From contig OZ246890.1 of the NCBI GenBank assembly GCA_965231815.1, positions 2,833,388 through 2,897,387 of the forward strand: 64,000 nt of DNA, given 5' to 3'. The first letter of the stretch is position 1. The number at the start of each line of letters is the position of its first letter. The DNA comes from Acidimicrobiia bacterium. Its GTDB lineage: Bacteria > Actinomycetota > Acidimicrobiia > Spongiisociales > Spongiisociaceae. The notes below the pieces were generated by a model, which worked only from the letters and a program-made list of their open reading frames with translations, made no database searches and had not been told where the DNA came from. The position numbers were made by a program, and so were the translations under genes. This document shows, piece by piece, positions 45 through 7,454 of the stretch.

Positions 45-512
45 ATGGATTACAGGGTTGCCAACACCATAGAAGTGCTGAACCGCGCGACGAGCGCCAT
101 CTGGTACGAGATGCCGGAGGAGGTGCGTCGCTTACTTACCCGCCGGGGGACCAAGGGCTACGGCTGGCCGATGATCATCTGCGCCGAGGAGAACACGCGG
201 GCTTTCGCCGACGACATGGCGGTGTTACGTAACGCGGGGCGGGACCAGTCACTCGACCTAGAGACCCTGAAGCAGGTGATCCGGATGTTCTGTGACGCTC
301 AGCTGGGTATCCTTCACAACTGGTACGGACTCGATGACAGCGTCGAGTTGGTCCGGAGTTCGCTCGATGCCCTCGATCACATTGAATCCCGTGAAGAGTA
401 CCTGGCTTTCACGCATGAGTTGAGCGTATATCTGGGCCGCCTCCATTGGTGGGCGGACACCCTGGTGCCGTGGGACGACATCAGCGCCAAGTACGAGGAA
501 ATGACCAACTAG
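45..512 (+). CDS. hypothetical protein, first gene of the putative BMC operon (5' end may lie outside the window)
   Basis: Complete ORF with helical N-terminus, packed 21 nt upstream of the Gfo/Idh/MocA gene on the same strand; no recognisable motif. Confidence 0.4.
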   Translation: MDYRVANTIEVLNRATSAIWYEMPEEVRRLLTRRGTKGYGWPMIICAEENTRAFADDMAVLRNAGRDQSLDLETLKQVIRMFCDAQLGILHNWYGLDDSVELVRSSLDALDHIESREEYLAFTHELSVYLGRLHWWADTLVPWDDISAKYEEMTN

Positions 513-533
513 CAGGGAATCGAGGAGGAGCCA

Positions 534-1595
534 GTGGCCGGACGAGACGGTAACTACAGGGTCGGGTGCGTGGGTGCGGGCTTCGTCGCCGAGGTGTACC
601 ACCTACCCGTCCAACAGCGGGTCGAGGGTGTGGAGACGGTGGCGATAGCCGATCTCAACATGGACTTGGCCCGGCAAAGAGCAGACGAGTTCGGAGTCGC
701 CGAGGTGTACGGCCCGTTCGAGGACATGATCGAGCAAGCCGACCTGGACATTGTCTCCATATGCGTACCACCGTTTCTCCACCTAGCGGTCACGAAAGCG
801 GCCGCCGCAGCCGGGGTGCATGTCATCTGCGAGAAGCCGATGGCGGCATCACCGGAGGAGGTGGCGGAACTGGTCCAGGTTGTTGAGGACAGCGGGATCA
901 AGTTCATGATCGCCGAGAACTTCTGGTGGTATCCCGACCTGGTCGACGCCAAAGCGAGGATCGACGCCGGGCTGATCGGGGACCTGTTTCATGTGCGAGT
1001 CGAAGATTTCATCAACGACATCGATCCCACCTATCGGCGGGACCACGAACGGTTCCTCATTTACGAGCAGGATGTTCACTACATAGACGTGATCCGCCAC
1101 CTGGTTGATGACGACGTGGTGCGAGTGCATGCGATGACCCGCCGGATCCCCACTCAGCAAATCGCAGGAGAGAACTTTGCCATGATCACCATGGAGTTCG
1201 CCAACGGCGTAATCGCCCGGATCGACGAATGCTGGGTTTCAGCCCGCGGCGATCAGTACGTGATGCGGATGCGCATCGATGGCACCCTCGGCTCGATCTT
1301 CATCAACCAGCCCGATCATCCCTACAAGCTGTACACGGATAAGCAGGGTCTTGAGGGATGGCACTATCCACCAACCGACACCAAGCCTCCGGGCGGGCAC
1401 ACGGTGGTGGGGTATTCGGCCCCCTGGCCGGCCGACGAACTCCGAGAGGGTACGGTGGGGTGCTACATGGCCTTTCTCGACTACCTGAACGACGGCATCC
1501 CGCCCGCCACAGTGGCATCCGATAACGCCAAGACGATGGAGGTCGTGTTCGCAGCCTACGAGTCAGCCGAAACCCAGCAGGTGATCCACCTGTGA
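534..1595 (+). CDS. Gfo/Idh/MocA family NAD(P)-dependent oxidoreductase
   Basis: N-terminal Rossmann motif GCVGAGFVAEVYH, EKP motif (ICEKPMA), length 353 aa typical of the family. Confidence 0.8.
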   Translation: MAGRDGNYRVGCVGAGFVAEVYHLPVQQRVEGVETVAIADLNMDLARQRADEFGVAEVYGPFEDMIEQADLDIVSICVPPFLHLAVTKAAAAAGVHVICEKPMAASPEEVAELVQVVEDSGIKFMIAENFWWYPDLVDAKARIDAGLIGDLFHVRVEDFINDIDPTYRRDHERFLIYEQDVHYIDVIRHLVDDDVVRVHAMTRRIPTQQIAGENFAMITMEFANGVIARIDECWVSARGDQYVMRMRIDGTLGSIFINQPDHPYKLYTDKQGLEGWHYPPTDTKPPGGHTVVGYSAPWPADELREGTVGCYMAFLDYLNDGIPPATVASDNAKTMEVVFAAYESAETQQVIHL

Positions 1596-1645
1596 TCCTT
1601 CGATCCCCCCGACCGGATTACCCCGTTTAGGGGGCAGGCCCTCTG

Positions 1646-2467
1646 ATGGCCACGGCGTTGCGGGACGGGCTGCTCGATTACTTCCGTTCGGACGGGTGGG
1701 CTGCAGCCCAAGCCCTGCTGGAGAATCCGGGGGTCAGTTTCTTCGAGGCGAAGGTAACCACCCGGATCCACCCGTTGTCGCTGGAGTTCTTGTTCGTCGA
1801 GTACCTGGATCGGATCGGCCGTCGGGTGCGTAATGTGGGCCACGCCTTCGTCGGCGAATGGGGGTGGATCAAGATCTACCCGGAGGTCCGACCGGTGCTC
1901 AATATCGTGTGGCGGTACGACGACTCCTCGGTCATCGCAGCCCACCCCGAGGACTTCCTGGATGTGTGGACCGACGAGGGAGAGCGTGAATACCTGGAGG
2001 ATGTCGGGCCGAGAAGGATTGCCCGGGAGGACCGGGACGGGATCCTGTCGTACCTGGTGTCGGCGCACTGGAAGCAGGTTCTGGACCGGTACGCTGATTA
2101 CGAGACAGAGCACTTCCACACCTACCTCAACACCGACCTGCACCCCCACGACCTCGCCCCCTACCTGGTGGAGAGCCTGGCCGAGCGGGGATTCACGCTC
2201 CGGGTTCCCCCCTTCTTCCTGGCAAGGCCCGATCTCGGGCTCATGTGGATCGGCCTAGCTCCCGACGGGATGACCTCCCAGGAGGTGGCCTGCATCCATA
2301 CTCCCGGCACCCTCCTCGAGCCGAAGCGGCTCACCGATCAGGACCGGGAGTATGGGGGTGATCCCTGGACGGTGACCGACTTTCGCCGACGGGTAGCCCG
2401 AGACCCGTACGAGGTTCTCACACTGTCCGAGGCGAGGGGAATAGTCGATGAGATGGTGGGGCAGTGA
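1646..2467 (+). CDS. hypothetical protein (273 aa), translationally coupled to downstream aldehyde dehydrogenase
   Basis: ORF ends with GTGA stop/start overlap with the ALDH gene (GTG 2464). N-terminal amphipathic helix (ALRDGLLDYFRS) is a possible encapsulation peptide. Confidence 0.5.
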   Translation: MATALRDGLLDYFRSDGWAAAQALLENPGVSFFEAKVTTRIHPLSLEFLFVEYLDRIGRRVRNVGHAFVGEWGWIKIYPEVRPVLNIVWRYDDSSVIAAHPEDFLDVWTDEGEREYLEDVGPRRIAREDRDGILSYLVSAHWKQVLDRYADYETEHFHTYLNTDLHPHDLAPYLVESLAERGFTLRVPPFFLARPDLGLMWIGLAPDGMTSQEVACIHTPGTLLEPKRLTDQDREYGGDPWTVTDFRRRVARDPYEVLTLSEARGIVDEMVGQ

Positions 2468-4242
2468 GGAGGTTCGTCACCAGCGAGGACATTCGTCAAC
2501 TAGCCGAGATCGGCGAGTTCGAGTTCATGATGCGCGAGGGCACGGTCCTGACCGATGCAGCCCTCGACGAGGCCCACCGCCTAGGCGTTAGCTTGGTGGA
2601 AGGGTCCCGCCTGGCCGTTCCCCGGCCTGCGGCTACGGATGATCGGCCCGCTTCGTTCCCGCAGGTTCCCACGCCCCGCCCCTCCCAGGCGTTGACCGCT
2701 CCACCTCGAAACGATTCCACGACTCCCTCGGACGACCCGCCCCGCTTCGAGGGTCTTCCGGACCACTCCCACCTTCACTCACAACTCCTGATCGACGGTG
2801 AGTTCCGCGACGCCGCCGACGGGTCCACCAACCCTTCCGTGGACCCCGCCACCAACGAGACCATCCTGGATGTGGCTGCAGCAGCTGCGGAGGACATTGA
2901 TCTGGCAGTCCGGTCTGCTAGGCGGGCCTTTCGTAACTGGCGGCTGATGGACCCGGCTGACCGAGCCGATCTGCTACTCAAGGTTGCCGAGCGGATCGAG
3001 AATGAGCACGAGTTTCTTGCCAAGGTAGAGAGCCAAGACGTCGGGCGGCCGATACGGGAGACCACTCTGATCGACCTGCCGGCTTCCTGGGATCCGTTCC
3101 GGTTCTTCCAGGGCCTTGTACGGGCCATAGACGGTAGGGTTCTGGCCCTTCCCCGGGACTCACTCGACTACGTGCGCAAGGAGCCCATGGGAGTGGTGGG
3201 AATGATCATTCCCTGGAACTTCCCGCTGCACATCGCTTGCCGCAAATCCGCCGCGGCACTGGCGGCCGGCAACACCATCGTTCTCAAACCTCCGGAGTTG
3301 GCCCCCCTAACCTGTCTTGAGTTGGGACGTATTTGCACGGAGGCCGGCCTTCCTCCGGGTGTGTTCAACGTGGTCCCCGGCACCGGGGAGGTGGCGGGGA
3401 GGGCTCTGGTCCGCCACCAGGGTGTGGACAAGATCGCCTTCACCGGATCGACAGTGGTAGGTCGCTCTGTGATGCGGGGATCAGCTGGAACCATAAAGCG
3501 GGTGTCGCTTGAGTTGGGCGGCAAATCCCCGTCGATAGTCTTCGCCGATGCCAACCTCGACCGAGCAGTGAGCGGTGCCCTGTTCGGGATCTACCTGGCG
3601 CAAGGGCAGGTGTGCTCGGCCGGCTCCCGGATACTTGTGGAACGGCCCATATACGATGAGTTCTTGGAGCGGTTTGCCGCTAGAGCGGCATCCATACGGA
3701 TCGGTTTGCCGTGGCAATGGCGGACGCAGTTGGGCCCCTTGGTTAATAAACGCCAGATGGAGCGCGTCAACGAATACGTTGACATCGGCAGGGCTGAGGG
3801 AGCGACGGTTATCGGGGGCGGCTCCCCGCATGATGATGCCGAACTCGCCCGGGGAAACTTTATGGCGCCAACTTGCTTCGCCAATGTGGAACCCGGGTTC
3901 AGGATCGCGCAGGAGGAGATATTCGGTCCTGTGGCTGTGTTGATGCCCTTCAGCGGCGAGGAGGAGGCCGTCCGGCTGGCCAACGATGTTCGATACGGAT
4001 TGGCGGCCGGCATCTGGACCACGGATATCGGTAGGGCGCACAGGGTGGCTCGGGACTTGGAGGCCGGCTCCATCTGGGTCAACCACTTCGGCGTGTATCC
4101 CAGCGAAGCGCCTTTCGGTGGTTACAAGGAGAGCGGCACCGGACACGACCTAGGCTTGGAGTCGCTGCATGAGTACATGGAAACCAAGAACGTGCATGTC
4201 AACATAGGACGCGGATTCAATGACTGGTACAAGAAAAACTGA
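2464..4242 (+). CDS. aldehyde dehydrogenase with fused N-terminal EutQ-type domain and Pro-rich linker (BMC-associated)
   Basis: C-terminal ~450 aa show the ALDH active site (GQVCSAGSR), Glu motif (LELGGKSP) and GxxxxG NAD site. N-terminal ~50 aa (FVTSEDIRQLAEIGEFEFMMREGTVLTDAALDEAHRLGVSL) resemble the EutQ N-terminus (LITANDIRAA...IITPEAREVADLLGF). A ~100 aa P/T/S-rich linker follows. Confidence 0.85.
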   Translation: MRRFVTSEDIRQLAEIGEFEFMMREGTVLTDAALDEAHRLGVSLVEGSRLAVPRPAATDDRPASFPQVPTPRPSQALTAPPRNDSTTPSDDPPRFEGLPDHSHLHSQLLIDGEFRDAADGSTNPSVDPATNETILDVAAAAAEDIDLAVRSARRAFRNWRLMDPADRADLLLKVAERIENEHEFLAKVESQDVGRPIRETTLIDLPASWDPFRFFQGLVRAIDGRVLALPRDSLDYVRKEPMGVVGMIIPWNFPLHIACRKSAAALAAGNTIVLKPPELAPLTCLELGRICTEAGLPPGVFNVVPGTGEVAGRALVRHQGVDKIAFTGSTVVGRSVMRGSAGTIKRVSLELGGKSPSIVFADANLDRAVSGALFGIYLAQGQVCSAGSRILVERPIYDEFLERFAARAASIRIGLPWQWRTQLGPLVNKRQMERVNEYVDIGRAEGATVIGGGSPHDDAELARGNFMAPTCFANVEPGFRIAQEEIFGPVAVLMPFSGEEEAVRLANDVRYGLAAGIWTTDIGRAHRVARDLEAGSIWVNHFGVYPSEAPFGGYKESGTGHDLGLESLHEYMETKNVHVNIGRGFNDWYKKN

Positions 4243-4254
4243 GGAGGTCGGATC

Positions 4255-4533
4255 ATGCAAGGTGCTCTAGGGTTGATAGAGACCCGCGGGCTGGTCGGCG
4301 CCATAGAGGCGGCCGACGCGATGGCCAAAGCGGCCCGCGTCGAGATCATCGGTCACGAGGCGATCGGCGGAGGCTACGTCACGGTCATGGTGCAGGGCGA
4401 GGTTGGCGCGGTGAAATCGGCGGTGGACGTCGGTGCTTCCGCGGCCAAGAAGGTCGGGGATCTCGTGGCCGCCCATCTGATCCCCAAACCCCATAAGGAA
4501 TTGGCGAAGGTGAGCGCTCTGCTCGACGACTGA
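4255..4533 (+). CDS. BMC-H shell protein (PduA/EutM-type, Pfam00936)
   Basis: Canonical BMC domain: GLIETRGLVGAIEAADAMAKAARVEIIGHE...GGGYVTVMVQGEVGAVKSAVDVGASAA...DLVAAHLIPKPH. RBS GAGGAGG 8 nt upstream. Confidence 0.9.
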   Translation: MQGALGLIETRGLVGAIEAADAMAKAARVEIIGHEAIGGGYVTVMVQGEVGAVKSAVDVGASAAKKVGDLVAAHLIPKPHKELAKVSALLDD

Positions 4534-4643
4534 TCATGGTCTCCGATGGGGAGGGTGCCAAAAAGACAATCTAGCAGGGTTTTACGTACCCTCCTCGTCC
4601 GTTGGAGGAGGGATGAGCAGCCGAGAGCGAGAGCGAGGAGGCA

Positions 4644-4913
4644 TTGATGTTGTTGTGCCGTGTTACGGGAACCACCGTCGTGACGGCGCGCGCCGCCGGT
4701 CTGGGAGGAGCCAAGCTGTTGGTGGTCCGGCCGGAGGGCGGTGACTCCGTTTCGTCGTTCGTGGCGGTGGACGCTGTGGGAGCCGGGTCCGGGGATCTGG
4801 TACTGGTAGCCGAGGGCAGCGCGGCGAGGATTCCCGAAGCAATCGTGTCGGCTCCGACCGATGCAGCCGTTGTCGGCATTGTTGACGAAACAAGCCACGA
4901 CCCGGGATGCTGA
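4644..4913 (+). CDS. BMC-P vertex protein (EutN/CcmL/PduN-type, Pfam03319)
   Basis: MLLCRVTGTTVVT...GAKLLVVRPEG...VAVDAVGAGSGDLVLVAEGSAARI...TDAAVVGIVDE matches the EutN/CcmL pentamer family. Confidence 0.85.
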   Translation: MMLLCRVTGTTVVTARAAGLGGAKLLVVRPEGGDSVSSFVAVDAVGAGSGDLVLVAEGSAARIPEAIVSAPTDAAVVGIVDETSHDPGC

Positions 4914-5545
4914 CGGTGACGAGTCCAGGACAATCGGGTAGCGGGAGCGGCAACTCTTTGCGCGCCTACGTATATGTGGACAAGATGCAGCCCACTTGGG
5001 CGGCCTACGTGGGAAGGAACGACAAAGAAAGTTCGGGACTGGAAGGGATGGCGCAGCTTTATGTGGAGGTTGCGCCCGCCACGCTGGTGTTCTCGCTCGC
5101 CAACGCCGCGCTGAAGAACACCGAGACGTCCTCATCCATGCTGGTTGCCGAGCGGAGATACGGGACGCTCGAACTACACTCGGCCAACCCCGACGCGGTC
5201 CGCCAGGCCGGAACCATCATCCTGGCGATGATCGGCAGTTCCTCGGCCCCCGGCATCGTGCCCTCGGCGGTGACTACCCGTATCGTCAACAACGTGACCG
5301 GCATCGAAGCCGGGCTGGTGAACCGGATGCGTGTCCGCAGCCGGCTCAGAGAAGGTGACGCCATGCTGGTCGTGGAGACGGAGCCCGCCGCCTACGTGGC
5401 ACTGGCCGCCAACGAAGTGGAGAAGCACACCTCGCTGCGCATGATCCTCGTGCGGCTCCACGGCGCCAGCGGTCGTCTGATCCTCGCCGGGAGCGAAGCC
5501 GAGGTGGAGATCGGGCGCCAGGTGGCTCTCGGGGCCCTCGGGTAG
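4907..5545 (+). CDS. divergent tandem-BMC-domain (BMC-T-like) shell protein
   Basis: 212 aa with two BMC-like halves. The second half (AAYVALAANEVEKHTSLRMILVRLHGASGRLILAGSEAEVEIGRQVALGAL) aligns to the AxDAxxKAAxVELxxxxxxGxG...GDVxAVxxAV pattern. The first half is more degenerate. The start overlaps the BMC-P stop. Confidence 0.5.
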   Translation: MLTVTSPGQSGSGSGNSLRAYVYVDKMQPTWAAYVGRNDKESSGLEGMAQLYVEVAPATLVFSLANAALKNTETSSSMLVAERRYGTLELHSANPDAVRQAGTIILAMIGSSSAPGIVPSAVTTRIVNNVTGIEAGLVNRMRVRSRLREGDAMLVVETEPAAYVALAANEVEKHTSLRMILVRLHGASGRLILAGSEAEVEIGRQVALGALG

Positions 5546-5554
5546 GGGGGAGTC

Positions 5555-6103
5555 GTGCGCCAGATACTGACCACCGAGGATATCCGGACCGCAATCCGCC
5601 GGGGCAAGACGGAGTTGGTTGTCGAGCCCCCGACCATCATCACCGCAGCCGCTCGGGACGAGGCCAACCTGGCCGGGCTCCGGATCATCGAAGGTCCCAA
5701 GGACCGCAACGCCGACATAGTCATCAAGGTGTCCGGCGAAGATATCCGGGCGACGCTACTACTCGACGAGGCGCCTGTCACCGCGTCGGCCATCCGTGAC
5801 CTCCTTCCCCTCTCCGGTACCGTCAACCATGCCCGCCTAGCCGGCGACGAACTGATGTTCCCGATCCGGACCTACCTGGGTCCGGAGAACCAATCCAAGG
5901 CTCAATCGGCGGGAAACATCGCCTATTGGCCTGACCGGATGATCATCGCCATGTTCTACGGGGACACCGGCGGTGTGGGTCTCACCAACGTATTCGCACG
6001 GGTGGTCGCCGACGACATGGAAGCCTTCCGCAAGGCGGGAGACTTCGTCTGGAAAAACCAGGGAGTGGAACTCCGCATCGAGCATGCCAGGCCGCCGGCG
6101 TAG
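5555..6103 (+). CDS. BMC-associated protein with EutQ-type N-terminal domain (EutQ-like)
   Basis: N-terminus MRQILTTEDIRTAIRRGKTELVVEPPTIITAAARDEANLAGLRIIEG is homologous to the ALDH N-terminus in the same operon and to the EutQ N-terminal region. The C-terminal ~110 aa are of uncertain fold (no His cupin motif). GTG start with GGGGGGAG RBS. Confidence 0.55.
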   Translation: MRQILTTEDIRTAIRRGKTELVVEPPTIITAAARDEANLAGLRIIEGPKDRNADIVIKVSGEDIRATLLLDEAPVTASAIRDLLPLSGTVNHARLAGDELMFPIRTYLGPENQSKAQSAGNIAYWPDRMIIAMFYGDTGGVGLTNVFARVVADDMEAFRKAGDFVWKNQGVELRIEHARPPA

Positions 6104-6307
6104 CAGAGTTCGGCTAAGGGAGCTCCGCACCGAGAGGCCGCGTTCGTCCCTGATGCCGGGTCGCTCAAGTGCGTGTCACTTCTGCAAAAGTTTATCCCCC
6201 CAATTCACTCGTGCGGGTTGTTGTGAACCGTACCGGGTATTCCCGATGCGTGTCACACCCCCGCCGTACAGTTACAAGTGTTGATCGGCGGACCAGCAGA
6301 CCGTTGC

Positions 6308-6385
6308 CTAGCCCCGATTATTCATGGATAGGGGTATGGAGGATGAGTGGAGTAGACCAGTTTCACACCCTGACCAGGCAATACG
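6308..6385 (+). mobile_element. truncated 5' copy of a CTAG-terminated MITE-like element (family R1)
   Basis: CTAGCCCCGATTATTCATGGATAGGGGTATGGAGGATGAGTGGAGTAGACCAG... is ~85% identical over ~75 nt to the 5' ends of the full copies at 30719 and 45330 (reverse). No 3' inverted repeat is present. Confidence 0.45.
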
Positions 6386-6677
6386 ACATCATGAGCGACA
6401 TGGTAGACCTGACAGCCATCCTCACGAACAGGCCGCACATGTTGGCCATCGGCGAACAGGGTTGCCCCTTCGATGAACGGAGCACCGCTTCGCCGCTTGG
6501 CCGCGACGTTCGACGATCTCCGTCTCGGAGCCAGACTCGTTACCGACGAAGACAAGGAATGGCTCCGCATCGGCGCGCGGAATGCCGAGACTCAGGGTCG
6601 TCTAACGTTCTGGGAAGCTGAGCTTCAGCGGCTTTCTGGTGCCGGGTCGGAGCTCTTCTTCCTGCAGGGAGGCTATC

Positions 6678-7454
6678 ATGATGAGATTTAAGGATCGGGT
6701 TGCGATCGTAACCGGAGGGGCGTCGGGAATCGGTGCCGCCACCGCCAGGGAGTTCCTGCGGGAAGGTGCCCGCGTAGTCGTAATCGATTTGCGACCGGCG
6801 GATCACGCTTACCTAACCCGTGACCTGGACTGTTCCCGGTCGATGCTTCGATCCATCAAAGGCAACGTGGCGGAGATCGAGGACTGTCACCGTGCCGTCG
6901 CTGAAGCCGTCGACGCCTTCGGTCGTCTGGACTGCCTGGTGAACAACGCGGCCAGCTTTGTTGCGCAAGGGATTGACGTGACGAAAGAAGGCTGGAATGC
7001 CAGTTGGTCCACCAACGTCCTCGGCGCCACCAACATGGTCAAAGCCGCTTGCGAACCTCTAAAGGAGAATGGCGCCGGGGTAATCGTGAACGTCGCCAGC
7101 GTGGTGGCGGTCGTCGCCAAACCGGGTGCCTGGACCTATCACGGCACCAAGGGAGCGTTGCTTTCTCTCACCAAGTGCATGGCGATCGACCTAGGTGTCC
7201 ACGGTATTAGGGCGAACACCGTTAGCCCCGGCTGGACCTGGACGGAAGCGACCGCGGCCCTAATCGACCGCGATGCCTACGAGAAGTACATAGTCCCGCA
7301 TATGATGCTCAACCGCTGCGGCGAGACCATCGACGTGGCCCGCGCCATCCTATTCCTGTGCAGCGACGACGCCTCTTTCGTCACCGGAACGGACCTTAAG
7401 GTGGACGGCGGATACAGCGCCATGGGCCCGGAGGGCAAAGCCAACCCGGTGTGA
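6678..7454 (+). CDS. SDR family short-chain dehydrogenase/reductase
   Basis: TGGASGIGAATAREF glycine-rich NAD(P) motif, NNAA motif, YxxxK region (YHGTKGAL). Start taken at the ATG following the GGGAGG RBS. Confidence 0.85.
   Translation: MMRFKDRVAIVTGGASGIGAATAREFLREGARVVVIDLRPADHAYLTRDLDCSRSMLRSIKGNVAEIEDCHRAVAEAVDAFGRLDCLVNNAASFVAQGIDVTKEGWNASWSTNVLGATNMVKAACEPLKENGAGVIVNVASVVAVVAKPGAWTYHGTKGALLSLTKCMAIDLGVHGIRANTVSPGWTWTEATAALIDRDAYEKYIVPHMMLNRCGETIDVARAILFLCSDDASFVTGTDLKVDGGYSAMGPEGKANPV

What the first reader, a model, noticed from the sequence alone, without database searches (positions are those of the whole stretch)
2464..2950. EutQ-type N-terminal domain fused to the aldehyde dehydrogenase and duplicated on a second cargo-like protein
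Residues 1-50 of the ALDH (FVTSEDIRQLAEIGEFEFMMREGTVLTDAALDEAHRLGVSL) and residues 1-50 of the 182-aa protein at 5555 (ILTTEDIRTAIRRGKTELVVEPPTIITAAARDEANLAGLRII) are homologous. Both resemble the EutQ N-terminus (LITANDIRAA..G....V....IITPEAREVADLLGF), a region implicated in shell binding. In the ALDH this domain is separated from the catalytic core by a ~100-aa P/S/T-rich linker. Canonical BMC ALDHs instead use an ~18-aa amphipathic encapsulation peptide. A folded EutQ-type domain used as a shared targeting module for two different proteins would be an unusual encapsulation strategy.
Basis: partly seen in the sequence, partly recalled or inferred. Interest (0 to 1): 0.7.

Follow-up and report, generated by a model that had tools for sequence, protein, structure and literature searches.

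The report
EutQ-type docking domain on microcompartment enzymes
Two different enzymes in a previously uncatalogued bacterial microcompartment gene cluster each start with the same small folded domain, which matches the part of the protein EutQ shown to bind the compartment shell, so it probably loads them into the compartment in place of the usual short targeting helix.

Summary
Residues 1-47 of the 592-aa aldehyde dehydrogenase (ALDH, 2464-4242) and residues 1-47 of the 182-aa protein (5555-6103) are homologous: 39% identity, E 5e-12. They are the only two copies in the 64-kb window.

Profile comparisons tie both to the N-terminus of genuine cupin-bearing EutQ proteins (hhalign 99.6%, E 9e-24; NCBIfam EutQ model positions 1-48). 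AlphaFold2 predicts a compact beta-alpha-beta-beta-alpha-beta mini-domain, not a single helix.

About 90 ALDH orthologues (62-89% identity, Actinomycetota MAGs) keep the domain. ALDHs at 54% identity or less lack it, so the start is not mis-called. The linker is about 45 aa, not about 100.

Published experiments show that EutQ residues 9-41 bind the shell and that EutQ 1-99 targets GFP into Eut compartments. Direct shell docking of both enzymes is therefore the best explanation, but it is inferred, not shown.

The strategy is not unique. The same domain heads aldolases, amidohydrolases, RpiB and small adaptor-like proteins in other microcompartment loci. The 2021 BMC catalogue noted a EutQ-like extension in its supplement without reading it as a targeting signal.

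The locus also encodes a split Pictet-Spenglerase-like enzyme and a non-acylating ALDH, and it matches none of the catalogue type descriptions I read or searched. Verdict: new variant of a known kind.

The parts
2464..2604 (+). EutQ-N-type domain of the ALDH (aa 1-47), predicted beta-alpha-beta-beta-alpha-beta fold
   Evidence: HMM hit E 5e-26. AF2 model of this domain alone: pLDDT 81, E3-5 H7-16 E20-23 E27-29 H31-40 E43-46. hhalign to EutQ N-termini 99.6%. Column identity 0.77 across 29 orthologues.
2605..2739 (+). Flexible linker of the ALDH (aa 48-92), 60% P/S/T/A
   Evidence: Composition and length. Length varies from 45 to 111 aa (median 54) in 86 orthologues. Column identity is only 0.44, with 109 inserted alignment columns.
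2740..2778 (+). Conserved lead-in segment PRFEGLPDHSHLH (aa 93-105) before the ALDH core
   Evidence: Conserved '(R)xEGLPD...L(H)' in the orthologues. Column identity 0.68. Function unknown.
2779..4242 (+). Catalytic core of a hydrolytic (non-acylating) NAD(P)-dependent ALDH
   Evidence: PF00171 aa 118-577, E 5e-171. Best NCBIfam matches are betaine-aldehyde, HpaE and StyD type dehydrogenases, all below their equivalog cut-offs. ELGGKSP at 350 and the catalytic Cys at 384.
4255..4533 (+). BMC-H shell hexamer protein
   Evidence: PF00936, E 1.5e-26
4644..4913 (+). BMC-P shell pentamer protein
   Evidence: PF03319 EutN_CcmL, E 2.2e-22
4907..5545 (+). BMC-T (tandem-domain, CcmP/CsoS1D-like) shell protein
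   Evidence: NCBIfam CcmP model, E 3.5e-42. Orthologues carry PF27545 CsoS1D_N.
5555..5695 (+). Second copy of the EutQ-N-type domain (aa 1-47 of the 182-aa protein)
   Evidence: BLASTP against the ALDH copy E 5e-12. NCBIfam EutQ positions 1-60, E 3.5e-6. AF2 pLDDT about 95 with the same secondary-structure order.
5696..6103 (+). Short connector plus DUF3830 / cyclophilin-like core
   Evidence: PF12903, PF04126 and PF18050. Foldseek: 3kop E 4e-10; N-domain of the Pictet-Spenglerases McbB (3x27, E 8e-9) and KslB. Homologues of 131-135 aa lack the N-domain.
45..512 (+). Cucumopine-synthase-C-like helical-bundle protein, probable partner subunit of the DUF3830 protein
   Evidence: PF18631, E 2.9e-13. 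Aligns to McbB residues 185-325, E 2.2e-4. The homologous gene lies immediately next to DUF3830 in type B loci.
534..2467 (+). GFO/IDH/MocA oxidoreductase (534-1595) and a 273-aa protein of unknown family (1646-2467), conserved upstream neighbours in type A loci; no targeting module found on either
   Evidence: Synteny in L082 and L084. The C-terminal helix of the 273-aa protein is also present in a non-adjacent paralogue, so it is not a BMC-specific extension.

Best explanation
The first ~47 residues of the ALDH and of the DUF3830 protein are copies of a small, independently folding domain homologous to the extreme N-terminus of EutQ. I propose that it docks onto the shell proteins encoded between the two genes (BMC-H, and possibly BMC-T), and so recruits both enzymes into the compartment as it assembles. 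On the ALDH it sits on a ~45-aa flexible tether; on the DUF3830 protein it is joined by ~8 residues. In Eut compartments EutQ is an adaptor: its N-domain binds the shell and later helices bind the encapsulation peptides of cargo. Here the adaptor step would be bypassed because the shell-binding domain is fused directly to the cargo. Proteins without the domain (the Cucumopine_C-like subunit, and perhaps the oxidoreductase) would enter by binding tagged partners, or would stay outside. Shown: the homology, the predicted fold, the conservation and the restriction to BMC loci. Inferred: shell binding, the luminal location and the identity of the shell partner.
For: Homology to EutQ residues 1-48 comes from four results. 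NCBIfam EutQ hits for 22 of 26 domains. Ten of 104 profile hits carry the PF06249 EutQ cupin, and 46 of 104 hit the EutQ model. hhalign gives 99.6%, E 9e-24. Published experiments map shell binding to this region. Deleting EutQ 9-41 leaves EutQ with the cargo aggregate and not with the shell. EutQ 1-99 suffices to target sfGFP into Eut BMCs. EutQ interacts with EutM and EutL (PMC12487888). Removing EutQ 1-100 abolishes EutM pull-down (PMC4827028). The domain is predicted to be folded and is more conserved than the linker (0.77 against 0.44 column identity). It is present in about 90 ALDH orthologues and absent from ALDHs at 54% identity or less; likewise, DUF3830 homologues of 131-135 aa lack it. 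All nine long ALDH loci examined, including the window, encode BMC-H, and BMC-P and BMC-T wherever the contig reaches that far. In other BMC loci the domain is fused to unrelated enzymes lying next to shell genes: L094, L096, and L099, where two enzymes in one operon carry it. There are no hits in 1.44 Mb of non-BMC ALDH loci. No canonical encapsulation peptide was found on either protein.
Against: No binding or localisation data exist for this system, and no complex prediction could be run. Yang et al. describe the EutQ region as two helices (H1/H2), whereas the AF2 models here add short strands, so the structural equivalence rests on prediction only. The two papers on EutQ do not agree on which face of the shell is bound: Held et al. 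assumed the cytosolic face of EutM. Domains that bind the outer face would tether enzymes outside the shell. The catalogue authors suggested a ligand-binding role for the EutQ-like extension. In type B loci the DUF3830 protein has no N-domain, so the domain is not strictly required for that protein.
Confidence: 0.7

Rival explanations
1. The domain is a cargo-cargo association module. Copies bind each other, or bind the linker of a partner, and condense ALDH and the DUF3830 enzyme into a core that the shell then encloses. There would be no direct shell contact.
For: Canonical encapsulation peptides also drive cargo aggregation (PMC12339742 abstract). The domain occurs in tandem arrays of 2-3 copies in scaffold-like proteins (P0162-P0170, P0179, P0183, P0199). 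It also occurs in small proteins together with a C-terminal amphipathic helix (27 of 147 hits), which suggests multivalent networks. ALDHs are oligomers, which would make the tag multivalent (established knowledge).
Against: In EutQ the deletion data separate the two roles: 9-41 is for the shell and 62-99 is for cargo (PMC12487888). A self-association role does not explain why the domain is never seen outside BMC loci any better than shell binding does. The two roles are also not mutually exclusive.
Confidence: 0.15
2. The domain is a ligand-binding or regulatory module that senses a metabolite of the pathway. This is the suggestion made for the EutQ-like extension in MIC1/MIC2 loci.
For: Supplementary Data 2 of Sutter et al. 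2021 says the ~70-aa EutQ-like extension is 'possibly interacting with a ligand'.
Against: The homology is to the non-cupin N-terminus of EutQ, not to the ligand-binding cupin: NCBIfam model positions 1-48, and no PF06249 hit on either window protein. A 47-residue domain with no conserved polar pocket residues (invariant: G17, T30, A33; near-invariant: D9, G41) is an unlikely metabolite sensor. It is fused to at least seven unrelated catalytic or other domains with different substrates.
Confidence: 0.05
3. The domain docks the enzymes on the outer, cytosolic face of the shell, so that they act on metabolites entering or leaving the compartment rather than inside it.
For: Held et al. 2016 assumed that EutQ binds a cytosol-facing helix of EutM, and mutations K53D, D57A/K and Q64K on that face abolished binding. 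[quoted passage not shown]
Against: Yang et al. 2025 conclude that EutQ is encapsulated and links shell to cargo, and that EutQ 1-99 targets GFP to the BMC. An ALDH is the archetypal luminal enzyme, because its job is to consume the sequestered aldehyde (established BMC model; PMC8217296).
Confidence: 0.08
4. The N-terminal extension is an annotation artefact: a mis-called start, or an untranslated upstream sequence.
For: One database member of the cluster is annotated at 489 aa without the extension (P0292).
Against: The reading frame is open only from 2452, and GTG 2464 overlaps the upstream stop codon. The domain is conserved at protein level in about 90 orthologues with a variable linker behind it. 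The same domain heads a second gene. The short annotation is the kind of error described for BMC enzymes in PMC11585597.
Confidence: 0.01

Closest known systems
EutQ N-terminal region (H1/H2, residues ~9-41) of the Salmonella/E. coli ethanolamine-utilisation microcompartment
   Same: Homologous sequence over ~48 residues. Located at the extreme N-terminus, followed by a flexible linker, and encoded in a BMC locus. In EutQ this region binds the shell, and EutQ 1-99 targets GFP to the compartment (PMC12487888; PMC4827028).
   Different: EutQ is an adaptor and acetate kinase: the N-domain is followed by cargo-EP-binding helices H3/H4 and a cupin domain. Here there are no H3/H4 helices and no cupin. 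The domain is fused directly to two catalytic proteins, so no separate adaptor is needed, and no EutQ-like protein is encoded in the window.
Canonical encapsulation peptides (PduP, PduD, EutC, EutE type)
   Same: A terminal extension found only on BMC-associated homologues, separated from the enzyme by a poorly conserved linker. The presumed job is the same, namely recruitment of cargo.
   Different: Encapsulation peptides are ~18-aa single amphipathic helices. This is a ~47-aa domain with two helices and four short strands, and a conserved sequence signature (T-x-x-D-[IV]-R ... G ... T-x-A-A-x-D-x-A ... G) that is recognisable across phyla by HMM.
EutQ-like N-terminal extension on the pfam02866 dehydrogenase of MIC1/MIC2 loci, and the ~130-aa EutQ-like protein of SPU6 loci (Sutter et al. 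2021, Supplementary Data 2)
   Same: A BMC-specific N-terminal extension with detectable EutQ homology on a cargo-type enzyme. The shell set is the same minimal one (one BMC-H, one BMC-P, one BMC-T-dp), and the ALDH has no encapsulation peptide.
   Different: Different enzymes carry it, and the catalogue read it as possible ligand binding, not targeting. I did not retrieve MIC1/MIC2 sequences, so identity of the domain is presumed, not tested.
ARO microcompartment of Actinobacteria (Doron et al. 2023, PMC10470539)
   Same: An actinobacterial BMC with a non-CoA-acylating ALDH that lacks a canonical encapsulation peptide.
   Different: The ARO ALDH has no detectable targeting extension at all, and how it is encapsulated is stated to be unknown. 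ARO loci are defined by a 2-aminophenol dioxygenase, which is absent from the nine cluster genes scanned here.
McbB / KslB / cucumopine synthase Pictet-Spenglerases
   Same: The DUF3830 core matches their N-terminal cyclophilin-like domain. The 155-aa protein matches their C-terminal helical bundle.
   Different: Here the two halves are separate genes, and one half carries the EutQ-type domain. Catalytic residues and activity were not examined.

Membership tests
EutQ N-terminal shell-binding region (domain level) | Sequence/profile homology to the first ~48 residues of EutQ | tested here: met
   NCBIfam PRK15457 positions 1-48 hit by 22 of 26 N-domains, best E 7.7e-7. hhalign to cupin-bearing EutQ N-termini 99.6%, E 9e-24. 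The profile search recovers proteins with the PF06249 cupin (E down to 4.9e-41).
EutQ N-terminal shell-binding region (domain level) | Encoded within a microcompartment locus, next to shell genes | tested here: met
   [quoted passage not shown] The same holds in 8 further loci.
EutQ N-terminal shell-binding region (domain level) | Physically binds BMC-H/BMC-T shell proteins and suffices to target a reporter | not testable with these tools
   Needs pull-down, ITC or imaging, or at least multimer structure prediction.
EutQ protein (whole-protein level: acetate kinase / adaptor) | C-terminal EutQ cupin domain (PF06249) and the H3/H4 cargo-binding helices | tested here: not met
   Pfam finds only PF00171 on the ALDH, and only PF12903, PF04126 and PF18050 on the 182-aa protein. 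The whole-protein score of 26.9 bits is far below the NCBIfam cut-off of 193.
Canonical BMC encapsulation peptide | Single ~18-residue amphipathic alpha-helix joined by a linker | tested here: not met
   AF2 predicts a 47-residue beta-alpha-beta-beta-alpha-beta unit. The linker criterion is met for the ALDH.
BMC-type CoA-acylating aldehyde dehydrogenase (PduP/EutE class) | Membership of the acylating clade of PF00171 | tested here: not met
   The best NCBIfam matches are hydrolytic ALDHs (BADH 530 bits, HpaE, StyD, PuuC). The general-base motif ELGGKSP is present. No phosphotransacylase is present among the nine cluster genes.
ARO microcompartment | pfam02900 ring-cleaving dioxygenase subunits next to the shell genes | tested here: not met
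   None among the nine genes at 45-7454 or in the syntenic loci L082, L001 and L083.
MIC2/MIC1 microcompartment (Sutter 2021) | AldDh plus pfam02866 lactate/malate dehydrogenase with EutQ-like extension, plus a 6PGDH-like protein, plus glutamine synthetase | tested here: not met
   No PF02866 or 6PGDH-like gene in the cluster. Glutamine-synthetase-like genes occur only near type B loci. The shell composition (one H, one P, one T-dp) does match.
McbB/KslB-type Pictet-Spenglerase | Cyclophilin-like N-domain and helical-bundle C-domain in one polypeptide | tested here: inconclusive
   Both halves are present but as separate genes. Active-site residues and activity were not examined.

The most novel reading that the evidence does not exclude
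The ~47-residue EutQ-N-type domain is a second, general class of microcompartment targeting signal: a portable folded shell-docking domain. It is used across many uncharacterised BMC types, either fused directly to cargo (ALDH, DUF3830, HpcH aldolase, amidohydrolase, FSA/transaldolase, RpiB) or built into adaptors and scaffolds (EutQ, small N-dom-plus-helix proteins, tandem arrays). The window's locus would then be a new BMC type that encloses a split Pictet-Spenglerase-like enzyme with a non-acylating ALDH. The N-domain HMM could be used to predict cargo in orphan BMC loci and as an engineering tag.
Probability: 0.45. Interest if true: 0.75.

Novelty: new variant of a known kind. Interest (0 to 1): 0.6.

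Why it matters
How enzymes without a canonical encapsulation peptide get into microcompartments is an open question. It is stated explicitly for the ARO ALDH (PMC10470539).

This locus offers a concrete and testable answer for one such case: the shell-binding module of the adaptor EutQ is fused directly to the cargo. The domain has a recognisable sequence signature, with 454 representative clusters in 1.84 billion proteins. An HMM for it would therefore flag candidate cargo and scaffold proteins in functionally orphan BMC loci. It would also correct start-site errors in annotation and give engineers a folded alternative to aggregation-prone peptide tags.

The locus itself widens the range of enzymes found in microcompartment loci. 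It has a non-acylating ALDH, no phosphotransacylase among the cluster genes, and a split McbB-like enzyme.

Tried and rejected
1. Mis-called start. Rejected, because the frame opens at 2452, GTG 2464 overlaps the upstream stop, and the domain is conserved in about 90 orthologues.

2. Further copies of the domain in the window. None found in six frames.

3. A Pfam family for the domain. None; only scattered single-member chance hits such as IF3_N.

5. A canonical encapsulation peptide on the 273-aa protein. Its C-terminal helix 'LTLSEARGIVDEMV' looked EP-like, but a non-adjacent paralogue has the same helix, so it is not a BMC-specific extension.

6. A genome-contig scan with the full-length ALDH alignment. 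That scan was wasted.

Repeated with ALDH N-domains only, it gave 10 loci.

8. Matching the locus to a type in the 2021 BMC catalogue. Terms for PF12903, PF04126 and PF18631 are absent from its supplements, and none of the type descriptions I read (two of the six parts of Supplementary Data 2) fits.

9. ARO membership. Rejected, because there is no dioxygenase.

10. A PduM relationship. Only 3 of 26 domains give weak hits (E 0.014), so I do not rely on it.
Full report
**What is there**

The first 7.5 kb of the window carry a co-directional cluster on the + strand:
- 45-512: a 155-aa Cucumopine_C-like helical-bundle protein.
- 534-1595: a GFO/IDH/MocA oxidoreductase.
- 1646-2467: a 273-aa protein with no family.
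- 2464-4242: a 592-aa aldehyde dehydrogenase (ALDH).
- 4255-4533: BMC-H.
- 4644-4913: BMC-P.
- 4907-5545: a CcmP/CsoS1D-like BMC-T.
- 5555-6103: a 182-aa protein whose residues 56-168 are a DUF3830/cyclophilin-like domain.
- 6639-7454: an SDR (short-chain dehydrogenase).

This is a bacterial microcompartment (BMC) locus with a minimal shell set.

**Checking the observation**

ALDH residues 1-49 and residues 1-49 of the 182-aa protein align without gaps at 39% identity (E 5e-12). An HMM built from 89 unique N-domains finds only these two copies in all six frames of the window (E 5e-26 and 5e-25; next best 0.48). A broader HMM finds nothing in 1.44 Mb of 80 unrelated ALDH loci, which serves as a negative control.

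The ALDH start is GTG 2464. It overlaps the upstream stop codon (GTGA), and the frame is open only from 2452. The 182-aa gene starts at GTG 5555, after a GGGGGAG Shine-Dalgarno sequence.

The domain is residues 1-47. The P/S/T/A-rich linker is residues 48-92, which is 45 aa and 60% P/S/T/A. A conserved segment, PRFEGLPDHSHLH (93-105), leads into the core.

**Is the extension real in orthologues?**

Yes. About 90 of the best hits to the ALDH are 567-655 aa long, 62-89% identical and cover 99-100% of the query. Their N-termini carry the domain. Below about 54% identity the ALDHs are about 490 aa and lack it.

Across 29 orthologues the column identity is 0.77 in the domain, 0.44 in the linker and 0.86 in the core. 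The linker length ranges from 45 to 111 aa. That is the signature of a conserved domain on a flexible tether.

Source names place these sequences in Actinomycetota MAGs: Gaiellales and Thermoleophilia, and Acidimicrobiia for the window's own clade. One database entry of that clade is annotated at 489 aa. This is the start-site error that Sutter and colleagues describe for BMC enzymes (PMC11585597).

**Is it EutQ-type?**

Yes, on four lines of evidence.
- NCBIfam's EutQ model (PRK15457) is hit at model positions 1-48 by 22 of 26 N-domains, best E 7.7e-7. TIGR02536, another Eut-locus family, is hit by 19.
- An exhaustive profile search of 1.84 billion representative proteins gave 454 hits at E 1e-3 or better.
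- Of 104 non-ALDH hits that I scanned, 10 carry the PF06249 EutQ cupin (E down to 4.9e-41) and 46 hit the EutQ model.
- hhalign of the N-domain profile against the N-termini of nine cupin-bearing EutQ proteins gives 99.6% probability, E 9e-24, over 50 columns.

Pfam has no model for the domain.

**Fold**

**What the homologous region does in EutQ**

Two papers bear on this.
- Yang et al. 2025 (PMC12487888): deleting EutQ 9-99 separates shell from cargo. EutQ 1-99 is enough to send sfGFP into Eut BMCs. EutQ lacking 9-41 stays with the cargo, while EutQ lacking 62-99 stays with the shells. H1/H2 (residues 9-41) therefore binds the shell, and H3/H4 binds cargo encapsulation peptides.
- Held et al. 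2016 (PMC4827028): removing EutQ 1-100 abolishes pull-down of EutM.

The window's domain corresponds to the H1/H2 part only.

**Proposed mechanism**

The two enzymes carry the shell-binding module of an adaptor directly. The ALDH has it on a ~45-aa tether and the DUF3830 protein has it on an ~8-residue connector. They would dock on the BMC-H/BMC-T layer during assembly.

The homology, predicted fold, conservation and restriction to BMC loci are shown. The binding, its partner and the face of the shell involved are inferred. I put this at 0.7. The rivals, not all mutually exclusive, are:
- cargo-cargo condensation (0.15);
- docking on the outer face of the shell (0.08);
- ligand sensing, as suggested in the 2021 catalogue supplement (0.05);
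- annotation artefact (0.01).

**Survey of related loci**

Two locus types exist.
- Type A (window, L082, L084): Cucumopine_C-like, GFO/IDH/MocA, 270-aa protein, N-dom-ALDH, BMC-H, BMC-P, BMC-T, N-dom-DUF3830.
- Type B (L001, L083, L085, L086, L088, L090): in most of these (L001, L083, L085 and partly L086) a glutamate-synthase-like trio (GATase, GXGXG, FMN subunit) lies upstream, followed by N-dom-ALDH, BMC-H, a bare 126-aa DUF3830, a Cucumopine_C-like protein, BMC-P, BMC-T. L086 and L090 end before one or both of the last two shell genes.

The second copy of the domain is therefore specific to type A (3 of 3 loci, against 0 of 6 in type B). Conversely, type B ALDH linkers carry one or two copies of a proline-containing motif, GLPxPALxGL(T/S)R. 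All 18 type A ALDHs lack it. This complementarity suggests that the motif may recruit the untagged partner in type B. That idea is untested.

**The strategy is not unique to this locus**

The same domain heads other enzymes in other BMC loci:
- a dihydropyrimidinase-like amidohydrolase lying between BMC-P and BMC-H (L094);
- an FSA/transaldolase just after BMC-H and BMC-T (L096);
- in L099, both an HpcH/HpaI aldolase and an amidohydrolase in one operon, behind BMC-P and three BMC-H genes.

It also heads RpiB fragments. It ends flavoprotein-like proteins. It occurs in tandem arrays of 2-3 copies. In 27 of 147 listed hits it forms small proteins made of the domain, a linker, a KPKGCQHGP motif and a C-terminal amphipathic helix.

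Prior art is thin. Supplementary Data 2 of Sutter et al. 2021 notes a ~70-aa extension 'with detectable homology with EutQ' on the MIC1/MIC2 pfam02866 dehydrogenase, read as possible ligand binding, and a ~130-aa EutQ-like protein in SPU6. The SPU paper calls the RPI N-terminus 'a typical EP'. I found no paper that treats this domain as a general targeting module. None of the catalogue type descriptions I read (two of the six parts of Supplementary Data 2) fits this locus, and searching all its supplements for the key Pfam numbers found nothing.

**The enzymes**

The ALDH is of the hydrolytic type: ELGGKSP at 350, Cys 384, and best matches to betaine-aldehyde, HpaE and StyD dehydrogenases. It is not the CoA-acylating PduP/EutE type, and the cluster has no phosphotransacylase. 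In this it resembles only the ARO BMC ALDH, for which the route of encapsulation is stated to be unknown (PMC10470539).

The DUF3830 core matches the cyclophilin-like N-domain of the Pictet-Spenglerases McbB and KslB (Foldseek E 8e-9). The 155-aa protein matches the McbB C-terminal bundle (E 2.2e-4; PF18631). The two genes are adjacent in type B loci. Together they look like a split McbB-like enzyme, which would explain why the DUF3830 protein is tagged as cargo. I did not determine the substrate of the compartment.

**Verdict**

I rate it a new variant of a known kind. The known element is the EutQ shell-binding region. The new elements are its direct fusion to cargo enzymes in an uncatalogued actinobacterial BMC, and the recognition that it is a widespread module that Pfam does not model. 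Interest 0.6.

Noticed in passing
window 45-512 and 5696-6103: The 155-aa Cucumopine_C-like protein and the DUF3830/cyclophilin-like core together resemble the two domains of the Pictet-Spenglerases McbB/KslB/cucumopine synthase, but split into two genes. A Pictet-Spenglerase-like enzyme in a microcompartment locus does not appear in the papers searched.
   Followed up: partly
L001 10001-11875, L083 10001-11806, L085 4033-5970; proteins P0019-P0094: ALDH linkers of type B loci carry 1-2 copies of a conserved motif GLPxPALxGL(T/S)R. All 18 type A ALDHs, including the window's, lack it. The motif is anticorrelated with the presence of the N-domain on the DUF3830 protein (0 of 3 type A loci against 5 of 6 type B loci by regex, with a variant in the sixth). 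It may be a short linear recruitment motif.
   Followed up: partly
L099 2569-5210; L094 1389-3611: In an unrelated BMC locus two consecutive enzymes, an HpcH/HpaI aldolase and a dihydropyrimidinase-like amidohydrolase, both begin with the same EutQ-type domain. In L094 the amidohydrolase and the next, truncated gene both carry it.
   Followed up: partly
proteins P0169, P0171, P0172, P0177, P0181 and 22 others: A family of 105-140-aa proteins consists of the N-domain, a low-complexity linker, a conserved KPKGCQHGP motif and a C-terminal amphipathic helix (VVDELVxxVKxL). They look like stand-alone versions of EutQ 1-99, that is, shell-to-cargo adaptors. The contigs retrieved were too short to show their context.
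   Followed up: partly
proteins P0164-P0170, P0179, P0183, P0199: Proteins of 200-255 aa have an N-terminal 'ITEAELRELWQNGRG' segment, two or three tandem copies of the domain and a C-terminal helix. They may be multivalent scaffolds.
   Followed up: no
L001 7109-10004 and 2804-4129; L083 7067-10004: In four of the six type B loci (L001, L083, L085, and partly L086) the ALDH follows a trio resembling N-methylglutamate-synthase/glutamate-synthase subunits (GATase_6/7, GXGXG, Glu_synthase/FMN), and L001 also has glutamine-synthetase-like genes, Fe-ADH and Peptidase_C26 nearby. This hints at a gamma-glutamyl/amine catabolic pathway feeding the compartment.
   Followed up: no
protein P0292 (cluster of P0003); protein P0096: One public annotation of a type A ALDH starts 100 residues late (489 aa), missing the domain. 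Another entry (P0096, 572 aa) carries both PF00171 and PF00936, so it is an ALDH/BMC-H fusion or a frameshift artefact.
   Followed up: no
L082 5553-6362 and L084 5342-6298, compared with window 1646-2467: The 273-aa protein of unknown family has a paralogue (42-45% identity) a few kb upstream in type A loci, among PTE, aminotransferase and PALP genes. It has no Pfam or NCBIfam match.
   Followed up: partly
window 6104-6638: A 535-bp stretch between the 182-aa gene and the SDR gene has no convincing gene, only a 150-aa ORF of doubtful coding character at 6169-6621. It could hold a promoter or terminator that separates the BMC operon from downstream genes.
   Followed up: no
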